64,000 nt of DNA from Octopus sinensis (Eukaryota). A program made the translations under genes and the position numbers. Below the pieces are notes generated by a model. That model had not been told where the DNA came from and made no database searches. It saw only the letters and a list, made by a program, of their open reading frames with translations. The stretch covers positions 63,922,001 through 63,986,000 of the forward strand of contig NC_043007.1 of assembly GCF_006345805.1 (NCBI RefSeq), given 5' to 3'. Position 1 is the stretch's first letter. Each line of letters begins with the position of its first letter. Positions 11,106-64,000 of the stretch are shown one piece after another.

Positions 11106-11302
11106 ATTATTATTTTAGTTCCTTTGTCAAAGCTCTTTTGTCACACATCCTGTGACATCCTTAGTGACTCACTATCCCATGTGGTATACCATAGAAAGAC
11201 AAAATGGAATAAACAGAACAAGAGGAGACATGTGGGATAGTCACTGAAGAGGTCACAGGATGTACGATGAAAGAGCTATGACAAAGAAACTAAAATAATA
11301 AT
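11106..11302. mobile_element. Mini Penelope-like element: inverted pair of hammerhead-bearing repeats
   Basis: About 70-bp inverted arms (11106-11178 vs 11234-11302), each containing a hammerhead core. Confidence 0.65.
11240..11282 (+). ncRNA. Minimal type I hammerhead ribozyme
   Basis: gtca-CTGAAGA-g gtcacaggatgtacgat-GAAA-gagc-TA-tgac; stem I gtca/tgac. A decayed mirror copy lies at 11126-11168 (-) with stem II gtcac/gtgac. Confidence 0.65.
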
Positions 11303-13896: not shown

Positions 13897-14000
13897 AAAA
13901 AAAATATGGAATGCTTCATGAATTTACATGTTATTCTTGCACAGGGATGATGCTAATGTCCTCTGTATAATTCTAGTATATGTACAGCCAAAGCTAGTAC
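13897..14000 (-). pseudogene. RNU6: U6 snRNA retropseudogene
   Basis: Minus strand gtactagctttggctgtacatatactagaattatacagaggacattagcat..caagaataacatgtaaattcatgaagcattccatattttttt aligns end to end with U6; multiple substitutions and a short deletion. Confidence 0.9.
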
Positions 14001-15958: not shown

Positions 15959-16991
15959 ACCACAAGTAACTCTGGATTTTCATTGTATAGTTTGTGTTCT
16001 CATTGTAGATATGAAGGGATTCATGAGGATGGTTAATAGTGAAAATAAAATGGAAAAAATGTGTGTCAGTATATAGTATGTGTGATTATTTAGTGGTTAT
16101 TGAAGTGTGTCAGTCTTGAGCAAGATTGGAAACGGCTAATCAAAGCAGCTGTTGTTTACATCTCAGTTTTGTCAATCAAAGTAACCCATGGTACCAGAAC
16201 ATCCAGACATTATTCGCATAGAACATTGAGAGGAAAGTCTTAGTTTGATTTTTTGCAACCCTAAAGATTCCACTCACACATTCACAGCAAACAAGGCACA
16301 GAGCCAAGACTTTAGATCATGTAGGTGTATTTTTACCCACTCCAATGTTTACACACGGCCAGTTATATGTCACTATGAGTAGAGCAATGAACTCCAGTAA
16401 TTTGAAAATTAGTGTCAACCAAACAGAAAATGTCATCTGCAAAGACATTTTGTAATCATATTGATATTATCGAAAGAAATGTGATTCATAATTTAAATAA
16501 GGAAATTTGTGAACTTTGAATGTATAGAGTATAAACAAACATAAAATAGCGTAAGCAACTAAAATAAAAGTATATCTAAATAACATTTTTTCTTAATACT
16601 CTTTATGTAGTGGTGGAAGGAAGCTCTGGCTTTCATTAGGGGTGGTCCACATAACCATTCATGATACAGAGGCTGGGAGCCTATTTCAGTTCAGGAGTGA
16701 ATCGTCATCGCATGTCACTTAGTTGCAAACACATGTCAATACATATCACCAACTATAATGTGCTTTCTCTAAGACATCACCCAGTAATCTATCAAGTCCA
16801 TTCACACATTTCTCAATACATACTACTGTTATGACTTCCCTCCTTCATTTTATGCTTCCGACATAGATGAGTAGATTTTCTTGTACTTGTAAGGCTAATA
16901 TATAGTTTAACTCCCAGTCACCAAAACAAAAAAAAACATTATTTATGTTATTTACATTTGACGGATATTTATCCTCATCTTGTTTGTTGTT

Positions 16992-17037
16992 AACACAACG
17001 TTTCAGCTGATATACCCTCCAGCCATCATCAGGTGTC
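16992..17037 (-). ncRNA. Minimal type I hammerhead ribozyme of the Penelope pLTR
   Basis: gacac-CTGATGA-t ggctg gagggtatat cagct-GAAA-cg-TT-gtgtt; palindromic ACGU helix III. The + copy at 17955-17992 has AAAAC in place of GAAAC and a deletion. Confidence 0.75.
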
Positions 17038-17212
17038 TTGGGGGAAATTTCAAACCTGGGTTCTCATTCCTAAGGTATTTTTCAATGTTGTTGTTGCTGT
17101 TGCTGTTGCTGTTGTTGTTGTTGTTGTTGCTGTTGCTGCTGCTGCTGCTGCTATTCAGGTCACTGCCTGGAATCGAACTCTGAATCTTGGGGTTTGTAGC
17201 TCATGTTCTTAA

Positions 17213-17804
17213 TGAAATAATCGAGCTCAGTAACAATGTATTAAGCAGCAGCTACCCCAAAAACATACTATCCACTCCAATTATGAAGAAAAGCGAGGAT
17301 GAAACCAATAAACTGTCCACAGTCTGTCTACCCTCTGTGAAAGGCCTCTCTGAAAAGATACAAAAGATATGCAGCCCATATGACATCAGGACAGTATTCA
17401 AGAGTAATATAACACTTTGCAAATATCTCCTTCAAGTAAATCCACCAATAGAAGAGAATATGACCAAAAACTGCGTGTACTCCATCCCATGCAACTGTGG
17501 TAGGTTATACAAAGGCGGAACATGCCGCCCCCTCAAAATAAGGGTAGAGGAACATCGCAAAGCTATGACACGAGGAGATATTGATAAATTGGGTATAGCT
17601 GTTCATGTATGGAAACACAAAGACCACCTCTCCCTGTGGGATGAAGTTAGAATAAAAAACAGAGAACACCACTGGAAAATATGAAAACTAAAAGAAGCAG
17701 CACATATGCTAGGACACAACAATCTCCTAAGCAGACAGAGTGCAGATCTGAATAACATATGGGAACCGGTATTAAGGAAGGATAGAAAAATATTAGATTT
17801 ATAA
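17213..17804 (+). pseudogene. Penelope GIY-YIG endonuclease domain (one in-frame stop at 17682-17684)
   Basis: LPSVKGLSEKIQKI..NCVYSIPCNCGRLYKGGTCRPLKIRVEEH..HVWKHKDH..REHHWKI*KLKEAAH..IWEPVL. Confidence 0.85.
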
Positions 17805-17839
17805 GCCCTAAAATCCACTCCATAATTGCCCACGAACAT

Positions 17840-17898
17840 ATGGCATAGTAGTTAAGAGTGTGGGCTACTAACCCAAGTTCGATTCCAGGCAGTGGCCT
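17840..17898 (+). promoter_or_regulatory. tRNA-like Pol III A/B-box module inside the Penelope terminal repeat
   Basis: tggcatagtagttaagag (A box) and agttcgattcc (B box); B box also present in the inverted copy at about 17158-17212. Confidence 0.6.
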
Positions 17899-18627
17899 AA
17901 ATAATAATAATAATAATTACATCGAAAAATACCTTAGGTTTGAAATTTCCTCAAGACACCTGATGAAGGCTGGAGGGTATATCAGCCAAAACAATATGAG
18001 GACAAATATCTGTCAAATGTAAATAATGGACATAATTCCTCATCTCTTAAATATAGAACTGTGTTAAAAAAAACAGTCTAATAGGTGTAAAAATATGTGT
18101 AGAAAACAAATAATGAAAACAAAAATTTGCACAAACAAATGAGGGCAGGGTGGTGGATATTAGAGGACTTTCAGAAAATTCACAAGATCTGATTTTTTCC
18201 TCATAACTTTCAGGTAAATGGATATATATTGAGGAAATTATATCGAAATACCATTCAAATGGCATAGATTATGATTATAAAGAAATATGGGGAAAATGTT
18301 TTCTGAAGGAGTGGGAGAGGATTTCGGAAAATTCACACAATCCAATTTTTTCTTTCATAACTCTCAGGAAAATGGGTATCTTTTTATGAAATTTTACAGA
18401 AATACCTTTCAAACAGCGTAGGTTACGATTATAAAGAAATTTGTGGGGAAAATGTTTTCTGAAGGGGTGGGGAGAGGACTGTTGGACAATCCACATGCGT
18501 TTTTTTCTTTATCGTCATAATCTATGCCGTTTAAAAGGCCATGGAGAGGTTTATTTCAAATCTATCCTTCATTGCATTTTCAATATAATCACATTTGAAA
18601 ACTAGTGCTTGAGAATGGAGAATCTCA

Positions 18628-32032: not shown

Positions 32033-33171
32033 CAAGGGTCAGCTGAAAAGTTCATAGGCTATCCAAGATACTTTCATGGAATGTGACCAAATGAGGTTTA
32101 TTTTTCAACATCATTCCCTTTGCAGTCCACACACTTCTTCCATCAGTATTGCAATGCTTGGATCCCATTGGTGTAGAAGCTCTCATCCTGTTGGTCAAAA
32201 GAGTCATCAACAGTAGATATGATGCCATCATCACTGCAATGCACCAGTTTTGCAAGTGTTTTTTTCATGTTGGAGAACAGATGATAGTCAGATGGGGCCA
32301 AATCAGAATATGGTGGGTGATCAACCAGTTCAAAGCCACAATCATGTTCAGCAGCCATTGAAAGCAAGGACTTTTGTGCTGGAGCATTGTCCTGATGAAA
32401 CAAGACCCCTTGTGTCAGTTTTCCTGGGCATTTGGTTTTCATAGCTTTTTGTAACTGCCTCAGCAAGTTGGCATGGCATTCTCCATTGATGGTGTGGCTT
32501 GTTTGAAGATAGTCAATAAATGCAATGCCTTTTGCATCCCCAAAAACAGGCCAGCACCTTCTCTGCAGATGAAATGACCTTTGCTTTGTTTGGAATAGGT
32601 GAGGAGGGGTGTTTCTACAGCATGGATTGTCTCTGGTTCAAAGTGACGAAACCAACACTCATCCTGGGTTAGGAAACATTCAAGGAAATCAGCTAGATCT
32701 GCCTGAAACAATGTCAGATTTTCCCATGGTGTTTTCTGCCTGGTGTGCTTTTGATCAGGTGTCAGAAGATGTGATACTCACCACACAAAAACCTTCATCA
32801 TGCCAAGTTCATTGTACAAAATATTCCCAACTCTCTCATGGGATATGCTAATGTCATTAGCTATTTGATTTATGGTCAATCTCCTGTCATCTATGTGGTG
32901 AACACTATCAAAGCTATCATTCTTTAATATAGCAAGCATGTCACCATGAATGCAGGTCCTTGATAACACCATGATGCCAAATTTTGTCCATTTTCAACGG
33001 AAGTCAGTACTTGTTACTTTTGAAGTCTTCTTTGAACACTGAGATGTCAGTTTACCTGAAAAGAAACAATGAAGTTATTAATAAGAAGAGTTGAAATTAA
33101 TACAAGCAAGCTTTCACAGGTCTAACATTGCTCCTTCATAGTCAGACTATGAACTTTTCAGCCCATTCTTG
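32033..33171 (-). mobile_element. Mariner transposon, decayed
   Basis: TIRs caagggtcagctgaaaagttcatag / ctatgaacttttcagcccattcttg with TA flanks; TQDECW, FHQDNAPA, HPPYSDLAPSDYHLF motifs. Confidence 0.9.
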
Positions 33172-47462: not shown

Positions 47463-47600
47463 CAAAATTGAAATCTTTCCCTGAGATATTAAGTTTATCC
47501 AATCCTGATTTAAAAAGAGCAACAAATCTATCATCCCGAGATGTGCAAATTCTAAAAGGAGCTGTTGCTGAATCTATTCCTATGTTACCTATTGTCACAG
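47463..47600 (+). CDS. XRCC3: Internal coding exon of DNA repair protein XRCC3 (RAD51 paralogue), N-terminal region
   Basis: Polypyrimidine tract + AG (47461-62), GT donor at 47601; 138 bp, phase 1/1; translates (A)KLKSFPEILSLSNPDLKRATNLSSRDVQILKGAVAESIPMLPIVT, matching recalled vertebrate XRCC3 [28 protein letters not shown]..SSILT. Confidence 0.85.
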
Positions 47601-52279: not shown

Positions 52280-52550
52280 CATACATATATATATATATAG
52301 GTACCCGAAAGTGACTAGAAACGTTCTCTGTGCGACAAACCCATTGTCATGCAGACTTCTGCTGCTAAAAGCCACTTGATGCAATCTTCAAGCATCAGTA
52401 ATGCCGACCAGCATTGTCAAGTGAAGTCGTACTACCATGTGGTGCATCTTTGTTTTGCAGTGCTTCTCCTTTGTTCGTTTGTTTTTTGCAAATGAAGGAA
52501 CAGCATGCTTCCTCGAAATTCTGTTTTCTGCTGGGGGAAATGGCAACCAA
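52280..52550 (+). mobile_element. Mariner 5' portion cut by the assembly gap
   Basis: MKEQHASSKFCFLLGEMAT resembles mariner N-terminal xEQRxxIKFCFxLGKxAT. Confidence 0.65.
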
Positions 52551-52650
52551 NNNNNNNNNNNNNNNNNNNNNNNNNNNNNNNNNNNNNNNNNNNNNNNNNN
52601 NNNNNNNNNNNNNNNNNNNNNNNNNNNNNNNNNNNNNNNNNNNNNNNNNN
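52551..52650. other. Assembly gap (100 N)
   Basis: N run; two different, oppositely oriented mariners flank it, so the true size is unknown. Confidence 1.
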
Positions 52651-53730
52651 CTGGGAAACGCTTTCCTTTCAAAAACAACTTCATGGCTGGGAAGAGATGA
52701 AAATCAGAGGGTGCAAGGTCAGGAGAGTAGGGGGATGGGGGAGGAGTTCATAGCTGCGCGCCTGTGCTTCTGATCCGGCAACACGCGAGTTGTGGACCAG
52801 AGCGTTGTCCTGCAGGAGAAGGATGCCTTTGCTGATCTTGCCCCGCCTCTTGATTTTGATAGCTTCTCTTAATTTCCTCAAAAGTGAAGCATAATAGGCT
52901 CCTGTAATTGTGGTACTATTTGCCAGGAAATCTGTCATCACTATTCCGTCCTGGTCCCAGAAGACTATGAGCATGACCTTGCCAGCAGAGGGCTGCACCC
53001 TTGCCTTCTTTGGAGGGGGTGAGTGTCACGGTGCTTCCACTGCATTGACTGGGCTTTGGTCTCTGGATCATAGTGATGGACCCAGGTTTCATCCTGTGTA
53101 ATCAGTCTTTTGAAAAATTTTGACCTACTTCTTGGCACATCTCCAAATTCATCCTTGAGCACTCGACGCGTTCTTGCTTCTGGAAAGGTGTGAGCAACCT
53201 GGGAATCCATCTGGCAGACACCTTTTGCATATGCAAATGGTCATGAATGATAGTTTCCACAGACCCGGTACTAATCTTGACCTCATGGGCTATTTGGCGA
53301 ATAGTTATGCGTCGATCTTCCAAAATGGCAGCCTCAACTTGGCGGACAGATGCCTCATGAATGGCAGAAGTGGGGCGACCAGATCTGGGAGCTGTTTCTA
53401 CAGAGCTCCGACCATGTTTGAATTCACGATGCCAGCGGTTCACAAGGTCATATGATGGGGCATCATCACCAGAAGTTACTTTCATTTCATCAAAAGTCTC
53501 CCGTGGTGTGCGTCCTTTCAAATACAAAAACCGGATCACTGCTCGACACTCAACAGGCTCCATTTCACACTTGACTCAGTTCAAACACCTATAAATCAGA
53601 AACCATAATTAGTTCAGAGCTGTAATTTGCCACTTAATCTATAGAGATATAAATAATTACACATGCAAAATTTCAGCTAGATCAAACAACTGCAAGTGGG
53701 TCAGAGGCATTACTTATTGAACATCCCTCA
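52651..53730 (-). mobile_element. Young mariner (irritans-like) with frameshifted transposase, inserted into a family A SINE
   Basis: MEPVECRAVIRFL..VSARWIPRLLT / ITQDETWVHHYDPETK / SAGKVMLIVFWD..LLQDNA; TIR ends catccctca-TA followed by the SINE B-box region. Confidence 0.95.
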
Positions 53731-53912: not shown

Positions 53913-54966
53913 TCTCTCTCTCTGTATCTACATTTGTCCCCCATCACTGCTTGACAATTGGTGGTCGTGTGTTTACATCCCCATAACTAAGTGGTTCAGC
54001 ATAAGAGATTGATAGAGTAAGTGCTAGGCTTCAAAAAATAAGTCCTAGAGTCGATTCGTGTGACTAAAAACCCTTCAAGGTGGTACCCCAGTATGACAGT
54101 AGTCAAATGACTGAAAAAAATAAAAGTTAAAAGATAATGAGGAGGCTGATATACATGTATGTGTATAGGAGACAACAAGGTAATAATATTTCCTTCTACT
54201 TAATAATAATATTTCTTCTTTTTCTTCTTCTTCAGCCTTTAATTTAACAAAGCAAAGTAATGTCCCTCCTGCTTTGAAAGTGGACAAACTTTCAACAAGC
54301 TGTGAAATTCTTGACAAAGCTTTGAGAGGTATGGATCAGTTTTGATTGTGTATCTATGTATTGTGTGTTTGTAAACTGATATCTCAGTTTTCACTTCTTC
54401 TAACCAATAACTGAATTGAGTTTCATATCTGGGAAATAATGTTTTATTTGTAATACATATTTGCATCTTGATTATTTTCTAGAGTGTTAAACAGATAAGA
54501 GGTAGATCTCTTTTATGATATGAAGTTGATTTCATACGAGTAACTTTTCTTCATCAAGTATCTATTCCTATACAGTGAATTCTTACTGCGGTATTTGGTA
54601 AAAAATTATATTTGAAATGGTATGGCTTTATGGTTAAGAAGCATGCTTCACAGTTACCTGGCTTAAGGTTCAATCCCACTGCATGGCTCCTTCAGTGTCT
54701 TCTACAATAGCCTTGGGGCAATCAATGCCCACTGAGTAAATTTGGTAGATGGAAACTTTTAGGGTTAGGGTTAGTAACTCATTTTATATATATATATTTT
54801 ACTCTTTGCTACACCCACACAACGATTTTACCATCATGAAGCCAGAATTTTCTACACCTCAAGAACTTCATTATTAGTCTGCAATCTAACAGTGTTGATA
54901 GCCCAGAACTCAGGTTGAGTGCTTCTCTGGAAATACCCTACTGGGACCTTAGATTATATATATATG

Positions 54967-55045
<79 letters not shown>

Positions 55046-55069
55046 TATTTATGTATGTATAAGGTATTT

Positions 55070-55891
55070 GTGACTGAAGATGAGCAAACTAGCTTGAAAC
55101 TGAGTCAGTCTCGTGATCCTGTTGTCTGCTGGAGGATGGTAGAGGTTTGCTCCCCTGCTGGTAATGTATATGTACAGTGTGCAGTGCTGCACTAATAACC
55201 AGCTGACAGATGATCTGCCTGGGGTTAAACTAGTTGTAACATAGAACAGCCATTTTGATGTGGCAATTAACTTTACAGCAGCAAGCTGGCAGAAACGTTA
55301 GCACACCGGGCGAAATGCTTAGCAGTATTTCATCTGCCATTATGTTCTGAGTTCAAATTCCACCGAGGTTGACTTTGCTTTTCATCCTTTCGGGGTTGAT
55401 TAACTGCACTGGGGTCAATGTAATCGACTTAATCCCTTTGTCTTTCCTTGTTTGTCCCCTCTATGTTTAGCCCCCTGTGGGCAATAAAGACATAAAATTA
55501 ACTTTACTTGTTAGTATAGATACTACTCTCATCTCTTCTTGAAATTTTACAACTAGCTACTTTGCTTGTTGCAAATCAGTGACTGATGGTCACTTTGTTT
55601 ACAATATATTGCTGGCTGGTGCGGATTTTGGCCACCTCTCTGGCAATCAAGTGTTCACTATTGAAGATGAGCAAACTAGCTTGAAACTAAGTCAGTCACA
55701 TGATCCTATTGTTTGATGGAGGATGGTAAAGGTTCACTCCTCTGGTGACAATATATATGTACAGGGTTCAATGCTGCACCAATAACCAACTGGGGCTAAA
55801 CTAGTAGTAACAATGTGGCGATTAACTTTACTTGTTAGTATAGTTACTACTTTCATCTTTTCTTGAGATTTTACAACTAGCTACATTGCTT
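55070..55891 (+). repeat. ~356-bp tandem unit (about 1.65 copies) with a hammerhead core; retrozyme-like
   Basis: 55070-55276 plus 55508-55568 aligns to 55657-55891; each copy has (c/t)TGAAGA-t gagc aaacta gctt-GAAAC-t(g/a)a-GTC-agtc. Confidence 0.7.
55277..55495 (+). mobile_element. Family B SINE with 12-bp TSD
   Basis: TSD aattaactttac at 55265-55276 and 55496-55507. Confidence 0.9.
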
Positions 55892-55939: not shown

Positions 55940-56538
55940 ATGAGTATACTCTGCTAGATGTGTAATGTAAGTGTACATGTTCGCCAGAGTGCTAGTGTTT
56001 CAAGAGGAATTAGTTGCTGTATGCTAGAGAGAAGACTGCGCTGGTTTGGTCATGTGATGCAAATGGATGCTGGCAGCTCCATAAAGAAGCACTGATCTCT
56101 CAAAGTAGATGGAACACATGGAAGTGAGAGACCCAGGAAGACATGGAATAAACTTCAGGATGCTGGATCTGTCAGGTGAGATGACAAAGGACTGAGATGT
56201 CTGGCACCTTGCTATACTCAAGAAGACCCGTACTCTACAGCAGAAGTGTTAAGACCAGTCCCCCTGGTGGTGAAAAGCACTCATAGCGGTGTCACATAAA
56301 AGTGTCCATGCAGTTTCACATTAAAACGCCCATGCAACACCATGTAAAAGTGCCCATGCAGTGCCATGAAAAATCGCCCATGTGGTGCCACATAAAAGCA
56401 CACTCTGTAAAGTGGTTGGCATTAGGGAGGGCATTCAACCATAAAAATCATGCCAGACTGGAATCTGGTGCAGCTAGCCATCTATGGTCAAACTGTCTAT
56501 GCCAGAATGGACAATGGATGTTAAATGATGATGATGAT
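55940..56538 (+). mobile_element. Older RTE LINE 3' end
   Basis: ERRLRWFGHVMQMD..RPRKTW, then ttggcattagggagggcat and a (GAT)n tail. Confidence 0.8.
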
Positions 56539-56698
56539 ATTTATATTTTTATATATATATATATTATGATGTGAGAGCGTTAAACAGTGAAAAATATGAA
56601 TATGCTAAAAGCATGTTTGAACTTGTAAACAAGCCTTTCACTGTGTTTTGTCATGAAGAAAATTTCTTGCTGTAGACATATGATGTAAATATACCCAA

Positions 56699-56792
56699 AT
56701 CAGCTCACAGCACCACCTGTGAGATGCAAGCATTTCAGAGTAGTTATTTCCTCTTCAGTCACAGAAACCAGGCAGTGGTGCTGCAAGCTGAT
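56699..56792 (-). ncRNA. Extended type I hammerhead ribozyme
   Basis: atcagcttgcagcaccac-tgcctggttt-ctgtga-CTGAAGA-gga aataactac tct-GAAA-tgcttgca-TC-tcacag-gtggtgctgtgagctgat; core intact, 6-bp plus 18-bp stem I. Confidence 0.85.
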
Positions 56793-58829
56793 AAAAGAGA
56801 CAATTTCTCTTATGTTTTTCCAGTCAACATAGGTTGGCTGGTAGTACAAATCGATGGTACATCGTAATTACGATGAGCCATCAAATATACACACACACAC
56901 ATACACCAAGTGTAGTGTATAAGTCTCTGTTTTGTGTTTGTCTTCCATGCCTCGACAACTAGCGTTGGTCTATTTTACTTCCCTGTAACTTAGCAAAGAA
57001 GACTGATAGACTAAGTACCAGACTTGGAAAAGATAATAAGTTCTGGGGTTGATGTGTTCAACTAAACCCTTCAAGATGGGATGGTGTCCTAGCATGGCTG
57101 CAGTCTAATGACTAAAACCAGTAAAAGAATAAAAGCCATTTGTGGATGTTGAGACACTGCACTAACACTTTTGTCCAGATTTGTTTGTTTTTTATTTATT
57201 TATCCTTTTTGCAGATAAGTTAGATCATTTAGATATGTGATACTTGATATGATAACTTGATTTTCATTTGATTAGTAGTCTATTATTGGACCTCCAATAT
57301 TTGTTTGCACACAAACTGTCTGGAAGCTTAAAATACACAAGGAATAACTTGATCAGAATATATGACACATTCAGTGGAGGAAAGGAATATTCCACATTTT
57401 ACAAATTTGGCACAAAAGCCATTTAAAGTTTTCCTAACATATTTTATGAGTTAGTGAATTATTTACAGGCATGGCTGTGTGGTAAGAAGTTTTCTTCCCT
57501 ACTACATGGTTCCAGGTTCAATCCCACAGCATGGTACGTTAGCCAAGAGTCTTCTATTACAGCTTTGGGCCAACCAAAACTTTGTGAGTGGATTTGGTTG
57601 ATGGAAGTTGAAAAAAGTTAATCGAGTGTATGTGTGTGTGTATATAATGATGATAACAATAATAATAATAAAAGCAAAATTCTGTCTATCCATCTGGGTC
57701 CCCTATATCTCAGTCTACATTTGCTCTACATAGACATATTATACCATTTTGGAATCAGGATGATCTCAGGATTGAAAATCTGACCATTTGGTTCTTGACC
57801 ATCCAGCATTGGGATCTGATTTAAAAGCATTTGGATTGCTATTTCTAACAGCTAAAGCTCCAGTTGATTCACACCATCTTGGTGACATTTGTCAGATGAT
57901 GTCAGAGGTCAAGAGGGTGATAAATGATATTCACTTCATTAATTTTACATTAAGATAAGAACATTGGGACAAATTGGCCAACAGTTGGAATTCGACTTGG
58001 TACTGGAGCAGTAGAATGATTGCATTACAGAATTAATTCTCATTTGTCCTTAATTTCTGATCAAACACCACCAGGGCATATAGTCATTATAGACGTATTG
58101 TAGTCGTGCTATTTAGCTCTCTTTAGTTTGGTGCTGCAAGCCCAATTAGCCTTCCACATGAGCTAGCTTAAAAGTCTACCCCCATGTAGACTTTTAAGCT
58201 ACTATTAAATAAATACGAAAAGAAACACACTCTAGATTTAGAGCAGTAATACTTAGAAGGTTGACTGCTATGGCCGGTCAGAGAATGATAATTGGTTTTG
58301 CACTTATAATATAGCTGGTTTATAAATTTGATTATGAGAGTGTGAAAGTGTAAACATTGATTGGAAACTGCATATTTTTTTTGTAAAATTAATGTAACTT
58401 CACAACACATCTAAAAAAAAACAGATAAAAGGAACCTGCAAAATAGAAAACAGGATAAAAGTTCATCACATACTTACGCCAAACAAACTTAATTATCAAA
58501 TGGCTATTTGTCTCCATGTTTAGAATCCTCCATGCCCATCCCTTACTTGTCTTTTACTGAACAGCCATCTTAAATTTCAGTGTGAAAGAGTATGAATGAA
58601 ATTTAATTTTTTTTGTTTTGCATGGATAAAGCTGAAGTTTTAAATATATGTTTGAAATAAAAAATGTAATTTTTGAAATTTTGTTGGATATTCCATTATT
58701 TCACTGAATGCTTCGTATATGTCTTGGGTGCCTAAACGAATTAGTAAAAGCATAGTTCATGCTACCAAGCCATGCTCACTTGCGAGTGATGACTATGACT
58801 TTTCTTTTAACGTATATATATATATAATA

Positions 58830-60613: not shown

Positions 60614-60862
60614 GGCATCGGCCACGATCAGTTGGAGCTTTTAACGTGCCACAGGCACGGAAGCCAGCCAAGGCGACGCTGGCAACGGCCACGTTCGGAT
60701 GGTGTTTTTTATGTGCCATCGGCACAGAAGCCAGTCGAGGCGGCGCTGGCATCGGCCACATTCGGATGGTGCTTTTTATGTGCTACCGGCACAGAAGCCA
60801 GTTGAGGCGGCGCTGGCAACGGCCACGTTGAGATGGTGCATTTTATGTGCCACCGGCACAGG
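60614..60862. repeat. 67-bp tandem array in the RTE 3' UTR
   Basis: Units start at 60614, 60681, 60748 and 60815. Confidence 0.9.
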
Positions 60863-60990: not shown

Positions 60991-63316
60991 CTATGCGGTA
61001 CTGGTGCAGGAAGCAGCCCGGGTCTTTGCAGTCACAGCATATCTCCAGAGATCTCGGTCCTTCGCCATTGCCTCAGTGAGGCCCAACACTCTGAGGTCAT
61101 GCTTGACTACATCATCCCATGTCTTCCTGGGTCTACCTCTCCCCCTGATACCTTCAACCTTTTGGGAGTGGCACTTCTTCACACATCTCTCCTCATCCAT
61201 CTGCAGTACATGACCATACCATCGCAAGCGTCGCTCTTGCACACCACATCTGATGCTTCTTATGTCCAGCATTTCTCTCAGGGTGCTTACACTTTGTCGT
61301 GCGTGCACACTGACATTATACATCCAGCGGATCATGCTAGCTTCATTTCTTTCAAGTCTACGCATGTCCTCTGCAGTCACAGCCCATGTTTCACTACCGT
61401 GAAGCATGGCAGTTCGCACACATGCATCATACAATCTACCTTTCACTCTGAGCGAGAGACCCTTTGTCGCCAGTAGGGGTAGGAGCTTTCTGAACTCTGC
61501 CCGGGCTATTCGTATTCTAGTGGTGATACTCTCTGAGCATCCACCTCCACTACTAACTTGGTCACCCAGGTAGCAGAAACTATCAACTACTTCTAGTTTC
61601 TCCCCCTGGAGTGTGATGGAATCTGTTTTCTGAGTGTCTGTGGTGTCTATTGTCCCTGTGCATCTGCCGCACATGAAAGCTATCTTATCAGTTAATTTCC
61701 CTTTGATGTTGCTGCACCTCTTATGCGTCCATAGCTAACATTGGGTGCATCTTATGGAGTTTCTACCTACACCTTTCCTACAGCTCAAGCAGGGCCACCT
61801 GCCCGAGGGTGTGTGTGCTGAGTTCGCCTTTCTGCTTACTATAACTTTGGTCTTTGCTACATTTACTCTAAGGCCCTTTGATTCTAACCCTTGCTTCCAC
61901 ACCCGAAATTTCTTTTCTAGTTCCGGTAGTGATTCTGCTATGAGAGCCAGGTCATCAGCATAGAAGAGCTCCCAGGGGCATCCTGTTTTGAATTCCTCTG
62001 TTATTGCCTGGAGGACTATGATGAATAAAAGGGGACTGAGGGCTGAGCCTTGGTGTACTCCTACTTCTACCCGGAATTCTTCACTATATTCGTTGCCAAT
62101 CCTAACCTTGCTGACAGCCTCTCTGTATAGAGCCTGTACAGCCCTTATTAGCCATTCGTCAATCTCCAGTGTCCGCATCGACCACCAGATAAGGGATCGG
62201 GGGACCTTGTCAAAGGCCTTCTCCAAGTCCACAAAAGCTATGTAGAGGGGTTTATCTTTAGCTAGGTACTTCTCCTGCAGTTGTCGGACCAGGAATATAG
62301 CATCAGTGGTGCTTCTACCCGGCACAAAACCGAACTGCATCTCATCTAAGCAAATTCTCTCCCTAATGAGATGGGTTATGACCCTCTCTGTGACCTTCAT
62401 CACCTGATCCAACAGTTTAATACCCCTGTAGTTATTTCTATCTAGAGCATCACCCTTACCCTTGTAGCAGTTGACTATGGTGCTGCTACGCCACTCATTG
62501 GGTATGACTCCATTATGAACTACCTGGTTTACAATGCGGGTGACTAGGCCATAGCCCACATAGCCAGCTGTTTTAAGCATCTCAGCAGTGATTCCTGATG
62601 GGCCGGAGGCTTTACCTGGTTTCATATCCTTAATTGCCTTAACTACAAGGGAGCTATCTATTCGGATAGCTGGTCCCTCTACTGGGTCAACATTTTGCAG
62701 GCTCTCCTCCTCCCATTCATTCTCCTCATTCAGCAGTCTTTCATAATGGCTTCTCCAAGCCTCTTTCTTTTCACCAACATTAAGAGCAAGTGCCCCATCA
62801 TCCATGCGGACACATTTCTCTCCTGTAACATCACTATTTTCTCTCTCACACTGTCTGGCAATCCGAAATACCTCAGCTCTTTGGTCCTCACATCGCTAGA
62901 CATTGGAAAACTTCTTTTCTACTACATCTTTGGCTATGTATACCTGCCACCCAGCCTCCCTTTTGGCTACCTGGTACAGTTCCCTGCTACCCCCATCCCT
63001 CCAGGCTTTCCAGGCCTGTCTCTTTGCACTAATGGCTTTGTCTACTGCACTATTCCACCACCACGTAACTCTAGGTCTGGAAGGGACTTTGCACCATCCA
63101 CAGACTTGGTCTGTGGCCCTCAGCAAGCTGTCCCGTAGAAATTCCCAGCTACCTTCTATGTCTGACGTCTGAAGCTCCTCCTCCCTCTCATCAAATTTCT
63201 TGATGAGGATGTCCCTAAATCTCTGACCATGTGATGGGTTCTTTAGCTTCCAAATCCTTCTTTTCTGGATTGGTTTGTTTCTTGGAGTCCTTCTGGCCTC
63301 AAGCTTAAAGTCACTA
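60991..63316 (-). pseudogene. RTE ORF2 reverse transcriptase with PHD-type finger; two in-frame stops (62896-62898, 61735-61737), no frameshifts
   Basis: NYRGIKLL, QFGFVPGRSTTDAIF, FVDLEKAFD, GVHQGSALSPLLF, YADD, YLG, RLRWYGHV; the three track ORFs share one frame. Confidence 0.95.
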
Positions 63317-64000
63317 TTATTATGATAATTTAAATTGTTGCAATACATTAGCTCATTTAGATTACTTGTTTATCAATAAGTACTATTCAGCCTTATCTCT
63401 CAGTGGTAGTATCCACTAAATGTTATTCATTAATTAATCACCACACCTGGAAACAAGTACAGCAACCTAAACTGTATTGCTTTCACGCAACAGGTCTCTC
63501 ATATTGAAAGGAGACCAAGTTTATATTAAAATTTGTATTTTTGAGGCACTGCCAGAGTCAAATCTTTGCAGTAGCTGTAAAACTAGGTCTCTACAGACTG
63601 AAAGCATCCATAATGTGAATGTATTTGATAACTGGTATCTGAGAAGTATATATTGCATATTCATCACTGTGGTCATATGTTGGTGTGTGATCTCTAAACA
63701 GGTTACTTTCTCTCATCACTACCATCTATACTCAAACCCATTGTCTTTACTAGATGGTCTGCATGTGTCAACATCCTCTGGACACCTTTATTTGTGCTGT
63801 TATGAATCTAATCAAATCTGATTAGGTAAAATGTCTATTGTGGGTTATAGGTGTAGGTCATCAAAGCAGACCTTACATTAATCATTGATCCAGTCTCTGC
63901 TGATAGAACACAAAGTTTATCTGACTTAACCAGCAATTGTTGGGTATTGTAATTGTTAAGGTGACTGTTTCATCTAAAGATGTTGGCTGAACCTTTAAGA

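What the first reader, a model, noticed from the sequence alone, without database searches (positions are those of the whole stretch)
55070..55891. Tandem ~356-bp hammerhead-delimited unit: candidate non-LTR retrozyme
Seen: cores at 55074 and 55661 are 587 bp apart; removing the SINE plus one TSD (231 bp) gives a 356-bp non-coding monomer. Each copy has different lesions in stem I or the core, and the combined consensus (gtgact-CUGAAGA..GAAAC..GUC-agtcac) would be complete. Established: metazoan non-LTR retrozymes are short tandem repeats with one type I hammerhead per unit that yield circular RNAs.
Basis: partly seen in the sequence, partly recalled or inferred. Interest (0 to 1): 0.75.

Follow-up and report, generated by a model that had tools for sequence, protein, structure and literature searches.

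The report
Decayed ribozyme repeat in octopus intron
This is an old, worn-down tandem repeat built around a self-cutting RNA motif, a known kind of mobile element in animals, lying in what appears to be an intron of an octopus DNA-repair gene and probably no longer active.

Summary
The repeat is real: two hammerhead cores 587 bp apart, a SINE with a 12-bp target-site duplication in unit 1, and a 356-bp non-coding monomer (units 88% identical). Cleavage would follow the second GUC (55110/55697), not the first, and no 2-nt lesion needs mending.

New here:
- The monomer's two ends pair into a ~52-bp rod with G-U bias on the ribozyme strand (z -4.8; 13 G-U vs 2 A-C).
- The host is Octopus, and the array lies in sense 740 bp past an XRCC3 exon.
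- No Penelope ORF is adjacent.
- One unnamed protein record is a spurious ORF of a third, SINE-free copy (paralog or ortholog).

Only copy 1 keeps the full core. Copy 2 has C3>U and a broken stem I, and neither is predicted to fold actively. Best reading: a decayed ~1.8-mer of a non-LTR retrozyme, probably PLE-mobilised, roughly 18 My old. Copy number, cleavage and circular RNA are untested. A second, better-kept hammerhead element lies 1 kb away on the other strand. It is a known kind; my searches found no octopus report.

The parts
55061..55891 (+). Whole array, about 1.8 units of a 356-bp monomer plus one SINE. Both ends are eroded; no clear target-site duplication (best shared flank word 6 bp, in AT-rich simple sequence)
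55068..55116 (+). Hammerhead 1, type I: stem I 55068-55073 with 55111-55116; core 55074-55080; one extra U at 55081; stem II 55082-55095 (4 bp, G-U at 10.1-11.1, 6-nt loop); GAA 55096-55098; palindromic stem III 55099-55109; cleavage predicted after C55110
55111..55177 (+). 3' arm of the extended stem I (start of the monomer)
55265..55276 (+). First copy of the SINE's 12-bp target-site duplication; the empty site is at 55820-55831 in unit 2
55277..55495 (+). Interspersed SINE inserted into unit 1 (tRNA-derived octopus type is recalled, not tested); 6 of 97 non-CpG positions differ from the window majority
55496..55507 (+). Second copy of the SINE's target-site duplication
55597..55660 (+). 5' arm of the extended stem I (end of the monomer), present once; pairs with both 3' arms, better with that of unit 1
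55655..55703 (+). Hammerhead 2: C3>U, first three stem-I pairs broken, stem III 3 bp; cleavage site equivalent C55697; probably inactive
55698..55891 (+). Unit 2 after its ribozyme, with two 16-bp deletions, ending at the point equivalent to 55567
54969..55044 (+). (TG)38 microsatellite just 5' of the array; possible target or later erosion
54236..54328 (+). Host XRCC3 exon (about residues 63-94), donor site about 740 bp upstream of the array, same strand
47463..47600 (+). Preceding XRCC3 exon (about residues 18-63)
56566..56886 (-). Separate, approximately 320-bp structured element with its own type I hammerhead (core from 56758, cleavage site 56723, bulged stem I of 25 pairs); not homologous to the 356-bp unit outside the core

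Best explanation
A decayed genomic copy of a non-LTR retrozyme: a non-coding 356-nt unit with one type I hammerhead. In the ancestral family a tandem transcript was cut after the second GUC of each ribozyme (inferred from topology). The released monomer was closed into a circle by a host ligase (established for coral, mussel and axolotl retrozymes; not shown here). It folded as a rod whose two ends form an extended stem I capped by the ribozyme (pairing shown computationally). A borrowed reverse transcriptase, most likely from a Penelope-like element, copied more than one turn and inserted about 1.8 units beside a (TG)n tract in an XRCC3 intron (inferred). A SINE then entered unit 1 (shown), and point changes, CpG loss and deletions disabled the ribozymes (lesions shown, inactivity inferred). 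Today it most likely does nothing and is spliced out with the intron.
For: Topology beyond chance. Size, GC and tandem layout fit the published definition (PMC7229834; mussel repeats are about 350-390 bp). The arms pair at -54.4 kcal/mol, z -4.8, 0 of 1000 shuffles, against -29.3 on the other strand. A strand-neutral alignment gives 39 Watson-Crick, 13 G-U, 2 A-C and 9 other, p=0.004; a decaying DNA palindrome would give G-U and A-C equally. Stem III is palindromic and the two copies could pair 9 of 11 positions as a dimer. None of 78 PLE-type proteins hits 52-59 kb at E<=1, while they hit the PLE remnant at 17 kb with E 1e-74. P0080 is collinear with the SINE-free unit across the point where unit 2 ends and across the core (174 nt in both). 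PLEs make up 6.83% of the O. vulgaris genome (PMC13282606 supplement).
Against: Only 1.8 units, and no further copy in the window. The one outside copy may be the ortholog of this locus: it shares U at position 3 with copy 2. The whole circle is only modestly stable (z -1.8, 3 of 100 shuffles), and the minus-strand circle scores z -2.2. The native 177-nt region around hammerhead 2 is not unusually stable (z -0.8), and 167 of 6354 background window pairs match its duplex energy (the 25 best were mostly in TA-rich repeats). The G-U bias with the copy-2 arm is not significant (9 vs 4, p=0.13). No target-site duplication. No Rfam hammerhead family matched. Predicted stem-I pairing is about 0 in both copies.
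Confidence: 0.62

Rival explanations
1. The remnant of the pseudo-LTR of an autonomous Penelope-like element: a 5'-truncated copy (55061-55567) followed by a second copy ending at the same point (55891), with the coding part never copied or lost. It grades into the best explanation, since retrozymes are proposed to derive from pLTRs.
For: The layout can be read as a partial tandem with a shared 3' end, the PLE hallmark described in 10.1101/2021.04.23.441226. It adjoins a microsatellite, a bias proposed for some PLE clades. 24 of 57 Xenopus retrozyme families matched known elements, 21 of the 22 matched being PLEs, at their termini.
Against: No PLE coding trace nearby, though the 78 query proteins are relatives of one family only. 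PLE ribozymes are usually minimal and lack helix III, like the 17-kb one here, whereas this one has a 4-bp helix III and a long rod. No DNA similarity to the PLE remnant in the window.
Confidence: 0.2
2. A single dispersed hammerhead-bearing monomer that was duplicated locally at DNA level. The tandem would then say nothing about a circular intermediate.
For: Only two copies; the neighbouring element at 56566-56886 is such a solo monomer; unstable simple repeats flank both ends.
Against: P0080 carries the same join between the unit's end and the 5' arm. If it is a paralog, the join is a family property. It is about as far from each copy (29 and 26 of 44 residues) as the copies are from each other (29 of 44).
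Confidence: 0.13
3. Hammerhead 1 has been kept by the host as an intronic ribozyme that cuts XRCC3 pre-mRNA and tunes splicing or yield.
For: It lies in sense in the intron, 740 bp from the donor. All core bases are intact, and 26 consecutive bases are identical in both copies. Conserved intronic type I hammerheads exist in amniotes.
Against: Its long 5' arm is gone, replaced by simple repeat. Half of its stem I is G-U and position 11.1 is U. The active fold lies 9.9 kcal/mol above a decoy in which the core pairs with stem III. No conservation data.
Confidence: 0.04
4. A chance hammerhead look-alike in an ordinary duplicated stretch, or a box C/D scaRNA (Rfam SCARNA7).
For: No Rfam hammerhead hit; the best Rfam hit over the site is SCARNA7, E 0.0026.
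Against: Shuffle controls. The SCARNA7 hit scores 26 bits against a cut-off of 65 and also hits two other TG tracts.
Confidence: 0.01

Closest known systems
Metazoan non-LTR retrozymes, especially Mytilus galloprovincialis repeats of about 350-390 bp (PMC7229834)
   Same: Head-to-tail non-coding units of 150-450 bp, one type I hammerhead each with a real helix III, GC below 50%, self-paired monomer, PLEs in the same genome.
   Different: Only about 1.8 decayed units, one interrupted by a SINE; no evidence of expression or cleavage. Sequence relationship to the mussel family was not tested (supplement unreadable).
Vertebrate non-LTR retrozymes as non-autonomous PLE derivatives (bioRxiv 10.64898/2026.07.22.740005)
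   Same: Low repeat number is usual (75% of families have at most seven units). About 44% of X. tropicalis copies are intronic. Most genomic dimers tested were inactive (1 of 9 cleaved).
   Different: Fails that paper's definition of an active element; no parent PLE identified; molluscs were not among the taxa sampled.
Pseudo-LTR hammerheads of Penelope-like elements (example in this window at 16960-18040)
   Same: Type I topology, tandem occurrence, palindromic helix III region allowing a dimeric fold.
   Different: No RT or GIY-YIG frame attached; helix III is present; long rod; no sequence similarity to the window's PLE.
Conserved intronic type I hammerheads of amniotes (RECK and others; PMC6155905)
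   Same: Type I ribozyme in sense in a host intron.
   Different: Those are single and strongly conserved; this one is tandem, eroded and carries a SINE.

Membership tests
Non-LTR retrozyme | Head-to-tail repeat of about 150-450 bp | tested here: met
   356-bp period after removing the SINE and one duplication; about 1.8 units
Non-LTR retrozyme | One type I hammerhead per unit | tested here: met
   Topology in both units; complete in unit 1, degenerate in unit 2
Non-LTR retrozyme | No protein coding; GC below 50% | tested here: met
   Six frames broken by stops; GC 41%; the only protein hit is an unnamed singleton without Pfam domain
Non-LTR retrozyme | Highly self-paired monomer | tested here: inconclusive
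   Terminal rod strong (z -4.8, G-U bias p=0.004); whole circle z -1.8
Non-LTR retrozyme | Loop 1-loop 2 tertiary contacts of canonical type I ribozymes | tested here: inconclusive
   6-bp stem I followed by an internal loop, and a 6-nt loop 2; likeness to the Schistosoma layout is recalled, not tested
Non-LTR retrozyme | Target-site duplication longer than 4 bp, when present | tested here: inconclusive
   Best shared flank word is 6 bp of AT-rich simple sequence; ends eroded
Non-LTR retrozyme | No LTR, primer-binding site or polypurine tract | not tested
   No LTR-type layout is visible; PBS and PPT were not searched
Non-LTR retrozyme | Many copies across the genome | tested here: inconclusive
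   No other copy in the window; one outside copy seen only as a translated frame; no octopus DNA collection available
Non-LTR retrozyme | Self-cleavage and accumulation as circular RNA | not testable with these tools
   Needs transcription assays, northern blot or RNase R RNA-seq
Active retrozyme (definition in 10.64898/2026.07.22.740005) | [quoted passage not shown] | tested here: not met
   Hammerhead 2 has C3>U without the compensating G8>A (PMC3088659) and three broken stem-I pairs
PLE pseudo-LTR | Adjoins an RT plus GIY-YIG reading frame | tested here: not met
   0 of 78 PLE-type proteins hit 52-59 kb at E<=1; the queries cover one family
PLE pseudo-LTR | Minimal hammerhead lacking helix III | tested here: not met
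   Helix III of 4 bp in copy 1 and 3 bp in copy 2
PLE pseudo-LTR | Partial tandem: truncated copy before a fuller copy, shared 3' end | tested here: inconclusive
   Compatible (55567 and 55891 are equivalent), but the right end abuts the orphan tail of another repeat and may be a deletion
Domesticated intronic hammerhead | Conserved at the orthologous intron across species | not testable with these tools
   No cephalopod genomes on hand

The most novel reading that the evidence does not exclude
Octopus genomes carry several unreported retrozyme families at high density (four unrelated hammerhead groups, seven motifs, in this 64 kb), with young copies expressed as abundant circles. At this locus the sense-strand ribozyme, perhaps rescued as a dimer through its palindromic stem III, still cuts XRCC3 pre-mRNA, either tuning a DNA-repair gene or releasing a 587-nt circle that carries a SINE. 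The family-level part is likely (about 0.6); the probability given is for residual function at this locus.
Probability: 0.06. Interest if true: 0.65.

Novelty: new member of a known kind. Interest (0 to 1): 0.3.

Why it matters
It extends hammerhead retrozymes to cephalopods. Three targeted searches of the paper library listed no such report, and the 2026 O. vulgaris repeat annotation never mentions ribozymes in its text or supplement. Part of the unclassified octopus repeats may therefore be ribozyme elements. The locus is a clean seed for a genome search: exact period, empty and filled SINE site, corrected cleavage site. With 190 PLE families in the same genome, it is also a fair test of the idea that retrozymes derive from PLE ends outside vertebrates. 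The locus itself is probably inert, and a specialist would expect such elements in a mollusc.

Tried and rejected
Rfam: the gathering scan of the window gave only a U6 match. The E-value scan of 53-58 kb gave 16 weak hits, none a hammerhead; SCARNA7 was rejected as a TG-tract effect.

Tandem Repeats Finder misses the array. Unconstrained folds never show the active ribozyme. Pair probabilities were also low for the better-kept hammerhead 3 (0.005-0.09), so this method under-calls hammerheads and inactivity is not proven. RNAalifold of the two copies gave 0 of 36 pairs with double changes and an unrelated fold; two sequences carry no covariation signal.

A relaxed core census gave 9 motifs against 0-6 in 15 shuffles and is mostly noise. 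Weak window hits at 29532-29484 (E 0.052) and 52512-52538 were read and dismissed. An exact core pattern found 0 matches in prokaryotic genomes, as expected. A profile search for more translated copies returned only P0080 among 12 candidates.

Pfam found nothing for the PLE remnant or the two exons. The PDB search placed the first exon on XRCC3 but not the short second one; the second was placed by the octopus protein. XRCC3 exon 1 and the next exon were not found in the window. The prokaryotic promoter scan and tRNA scan were uninformative.

I considered that unit 1's two ends are co-adapted and that the dimer joins two different circles, since the 5' arm pairs better with the copy-1 arm. Simpler: copy 2 has decayed more, as P0080 sides with copy 1 at 4 of 5 informative residues. 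Left open. No structure or complex prediction was run because there is no protein of interest.

Full report
Observation. Two copies of a 26-nt hammerhead core region lie at 55075 and 55662, identical to each other and found nowhere else in the window at up to three mismatches (2 matches; 0 of 100 shuffles reach 2). Direct-repeat blocks at spacings of 587, 571, 555 and 324 bp resolve into two units that agree at 203 of 230 aligned positions, with two 16-bp gaps in unit 2. A 219-bp interspersed repeat with 11 other window copies at E<1e-10 sits in unit 1 between two identical 12-bp words 231 bp apart; unit 2 has the empty site. The SINE-free monomer is 356 nt, GC 41%. Homology runs from about 55061 to 55891, about 1.8 units. 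A descriptor search found 4 type I hammerheads in the window against a mean of 0.025 in 200 block-wise dinucleotide shuffles; at stricter settings the counts were 3, 2 and 1, none reached by any of the 200 shuffles. Rfam does not detect them.

Correction of the fold. In that register the first three stem-I pairs of copy 1 are mismatches. Cutting after the second GUC (55110) gives copy 1 six contiguous stem-I pairs (three G-U), a 4-bp stem II after one extra U, and a 4-bp stem III. Both copies and an outside record keep the same spacing before the core, so there is no deletion to mend. Copy 2 has U at position 3 without the compensating A8 that natural variants show (PMC3088659, section read), and its first three stem-I pairs are broken. 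The differences around stem I are largely what loss of CpG from a self-complementary hexamer would give (inference); the monomer has 2 CpG against 15 expected. Stem III is a palindrome, and the two copies could pair 9 of 11 positions, so a dimeric fold is possible, as described for other hammerheads.

An RNA-level signature. The 70 nt before hammerhead 2 pair with the 70 nt after hammerhead 1, which are the two ends of the excised monomer: -54.4 kcal/mol, 52 pairs, z -4.8, 0 of 1000 shuffles; the opposite strand gives -29.3 (z -2.5). With the copy-2 arm the value is -40.9 (z -3.5, 4 of 1000). A strand-neutral alignment counts 39 Watson-Crick, 13 G-U, 2 A-C and 9 other positions (p=0.004), and 39, 9, 4 and 10 with the copy-2 arm (p=0.13). 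Decay of a DNA palindrome is strand-symmetric, so the excess of G-U points to past selection on plus-strand RNA. Against this, the whole circle is only z -1.8 (3 of 100), the native 177-nt stretch around hammerhead 2 is z -0.8, and 167 of 6354 background pairs equal the copy-2 duplex energy.

Present activity. The active fold of hammerhead 1 lies 9.9 kcal/mol above a decoy in which the core pairs with the 3' strand of stem III, even when the long 5' arm is supplied. Stem-I pair probability is about 0 in both copies. The method ignores tertiary contacts and also scores the better-kept hammerhead 3 low, so inactivity is likely but not shown. In Xenopus 1 of 9 genomic dimers tested cleaved (10.64898/2026.07.22.740005).

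Context. Two plus-strand exons, 47463-47600 and 54236-54328, encode about residues 18-94 of XRCC3. The first matches XRCC3 chains in the PDB (E 0.00095) and the named Octopus vulgaris protein P0001 at 100%; the second differs from P0001 at one residue. Residues 95-335 are not in the window, so the array most likely lies in sense in an intron of more than 9.6 kb; the downstream exon was not seen. A (TG)38 tract ends 16 bp before the array, and (TG)n also precedes hammerhead element 3 on its own strand. Only 0.2-0.4% of positions lie that close to such a tract, but this is two cases noticed after the fact. No convincing target-site duplication was found. The right end abuts the orphan tail of another repeat and may be a deletion breakpoint.

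Relatives. No octopus DNA collection was available. A 57-residue open frame across the junction, searched against 1.84 billion proteins, gave one hit, P0080 (E 2.4e-19), an unnamed singleton on a 1575-bp contig. It is collinear with the SINE-free unit from the insertion site through the core and 3' arm (174 nt to the core in both). It matches copy 1 at 29 and copy 2 at 26 of 44 residues, and the copies match each other at 29. It is best read as a spurious frame on a third copy. It shares U3 with copy 2, so it may be the orthologous, SINE-free site of another octopus rather than a paralog. A profile search added nothing. Of 78 relatives of the PLE remnant at 17 kb, none hits 52-59 kb at E<=1.

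Age. The Jukes-Cantor distance between units is 0.128, about 0.064 per copy. On the scale in PMC13282606 (0.065 = 18 My; passages) this is roughly 18 My. The SINE differs from the window majority at 6 of 97 non-CpG and 9 of 26 CpG-like positions, so it entered soon after. These are rough figures.

Mechanism. Shown by computation: tandem unit, type I topology, terminal rod, SINE insertion, lesions, host exons. Taken from the literature (PMC7229834 parts 2-4 of 6; PMC7761336 passages and section 8): tandem transcripts self-cleave, monomers are closed by a host ligase such as RtcB, and a borrowed reverse transcriptase, probably from a PLE, makes more-than-unit-length cDNA. Inferred: that this locus arose that way and is now inert. 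The layout can be read either as a permuted 1.8-mer or as a truncated copy before a fuller one with a shared 3' end, the PLE pattern (10.1101/2021.04.23.441226, passages); both fit PLE machinery. PLEs cover 6.83% of the O. vulgaris genome in 190 families (supplement search).

Comparison and novelty. It looks built to work like the retrozymes of coral, mussel and axolotl and meets the sequence-level criteria I could test. It fails the definition of an active element and the PLE-ORF and minimal-ribozyme criteria of a pLTR; copy number and circular RNA are open. Searches for octopus with hammerhead ribozyme (5 papers hold both terms, 4 listed), cephalopod with self-cleaving ribozyme (7, 5 listed) and octopus with retrozyme (3, 2 listed) showed no report of octopus hammerheads. 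I saw the listings and read passages of only one of those papers. The library lacks most subscription papers, and the supplements of PMC7229834 and of the 2026 preprint (parts 1-3 of 5 read) were not seen. PMC6155905 and PMC7151607 were seen as passages; some searches were search listings. The SINE's family type and the likeness of the loops to the Schistosoma ribozyme are recalled, not tested.

Verdict. A real, decayed member of a known class in a host where I found no report of it. Interest 0.3. The better experimental lead is the neighbouring element at 56566-56886 (minus strand), which folds at z -5.2 (0 of 100 shuffles) and keeps a full core with a 25-pair bulged stem I.

Noticed in passing
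window 56566-56886 (-): Second hammerhead element 1 kb from the array: intact core at 56758, stem I of 22 Watson-Crick plus 3 G-U pairs with a 10-nt bulge, palindromic stem III, weak 3-bp stem II, whole region z -5.2. Single copy in the window, unrelated to the 356-bp unit outside the core, antisense to XRCC3.
   Followed up: partly
window 16960-18040: Penelope-like remnant: endonuclease-region frame at 17211-17783 whose relatives carry RT, flanked by inverted terminal repeats, each with a minimal hammerhead (17032 minus; 17960 plus, decayed).
   Followed up: partly
window 11115-11295: Long imperfect inverted repeat (z -12) with a hammerhead core at 11244 (+) and, read by eye, a decayed copy on the other strand near 11170; a fourth hammerhead group.
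   Followed up: partly
window 47463-47600 and 54236-54328 (+): XRCC3-like exons; one residue differs from the named O. vulgaris protein; the first coding exon and all later exons were not found in the window.
   Followed up: yes
window 13900-14000 (-): U6 snRNA-like sequence, 64.8 bits, with a 6-nt gap; probably a pseudogene.
   Followed up: no
window 54759-54774: Short TTAGGG run, the only one of two or more units in the window, about 290 bp before the array, followed by about 180 bp of unclassified sequence.
   Followed up: no
window 60991-63369 (-): LINE-type reverse transcriptase remnant in several broken frames (Pfam RVT_1, E 1.5e-29).
   Followed up: no
window 32143-32637 (-) and 53102-53575 (-): Mariner-type transposase remnants (Pfam Transposase_1 and HTH_48).
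   Followed up: no
window 56286-56399 and 60614-60861: Minisatellites of period 24/48 and 67 inside another interspersed repeat family.
   Followed up: no
window 52551-52650: Assembly gap of 100 N between the two XRCC3 exons.
   Followed up: no
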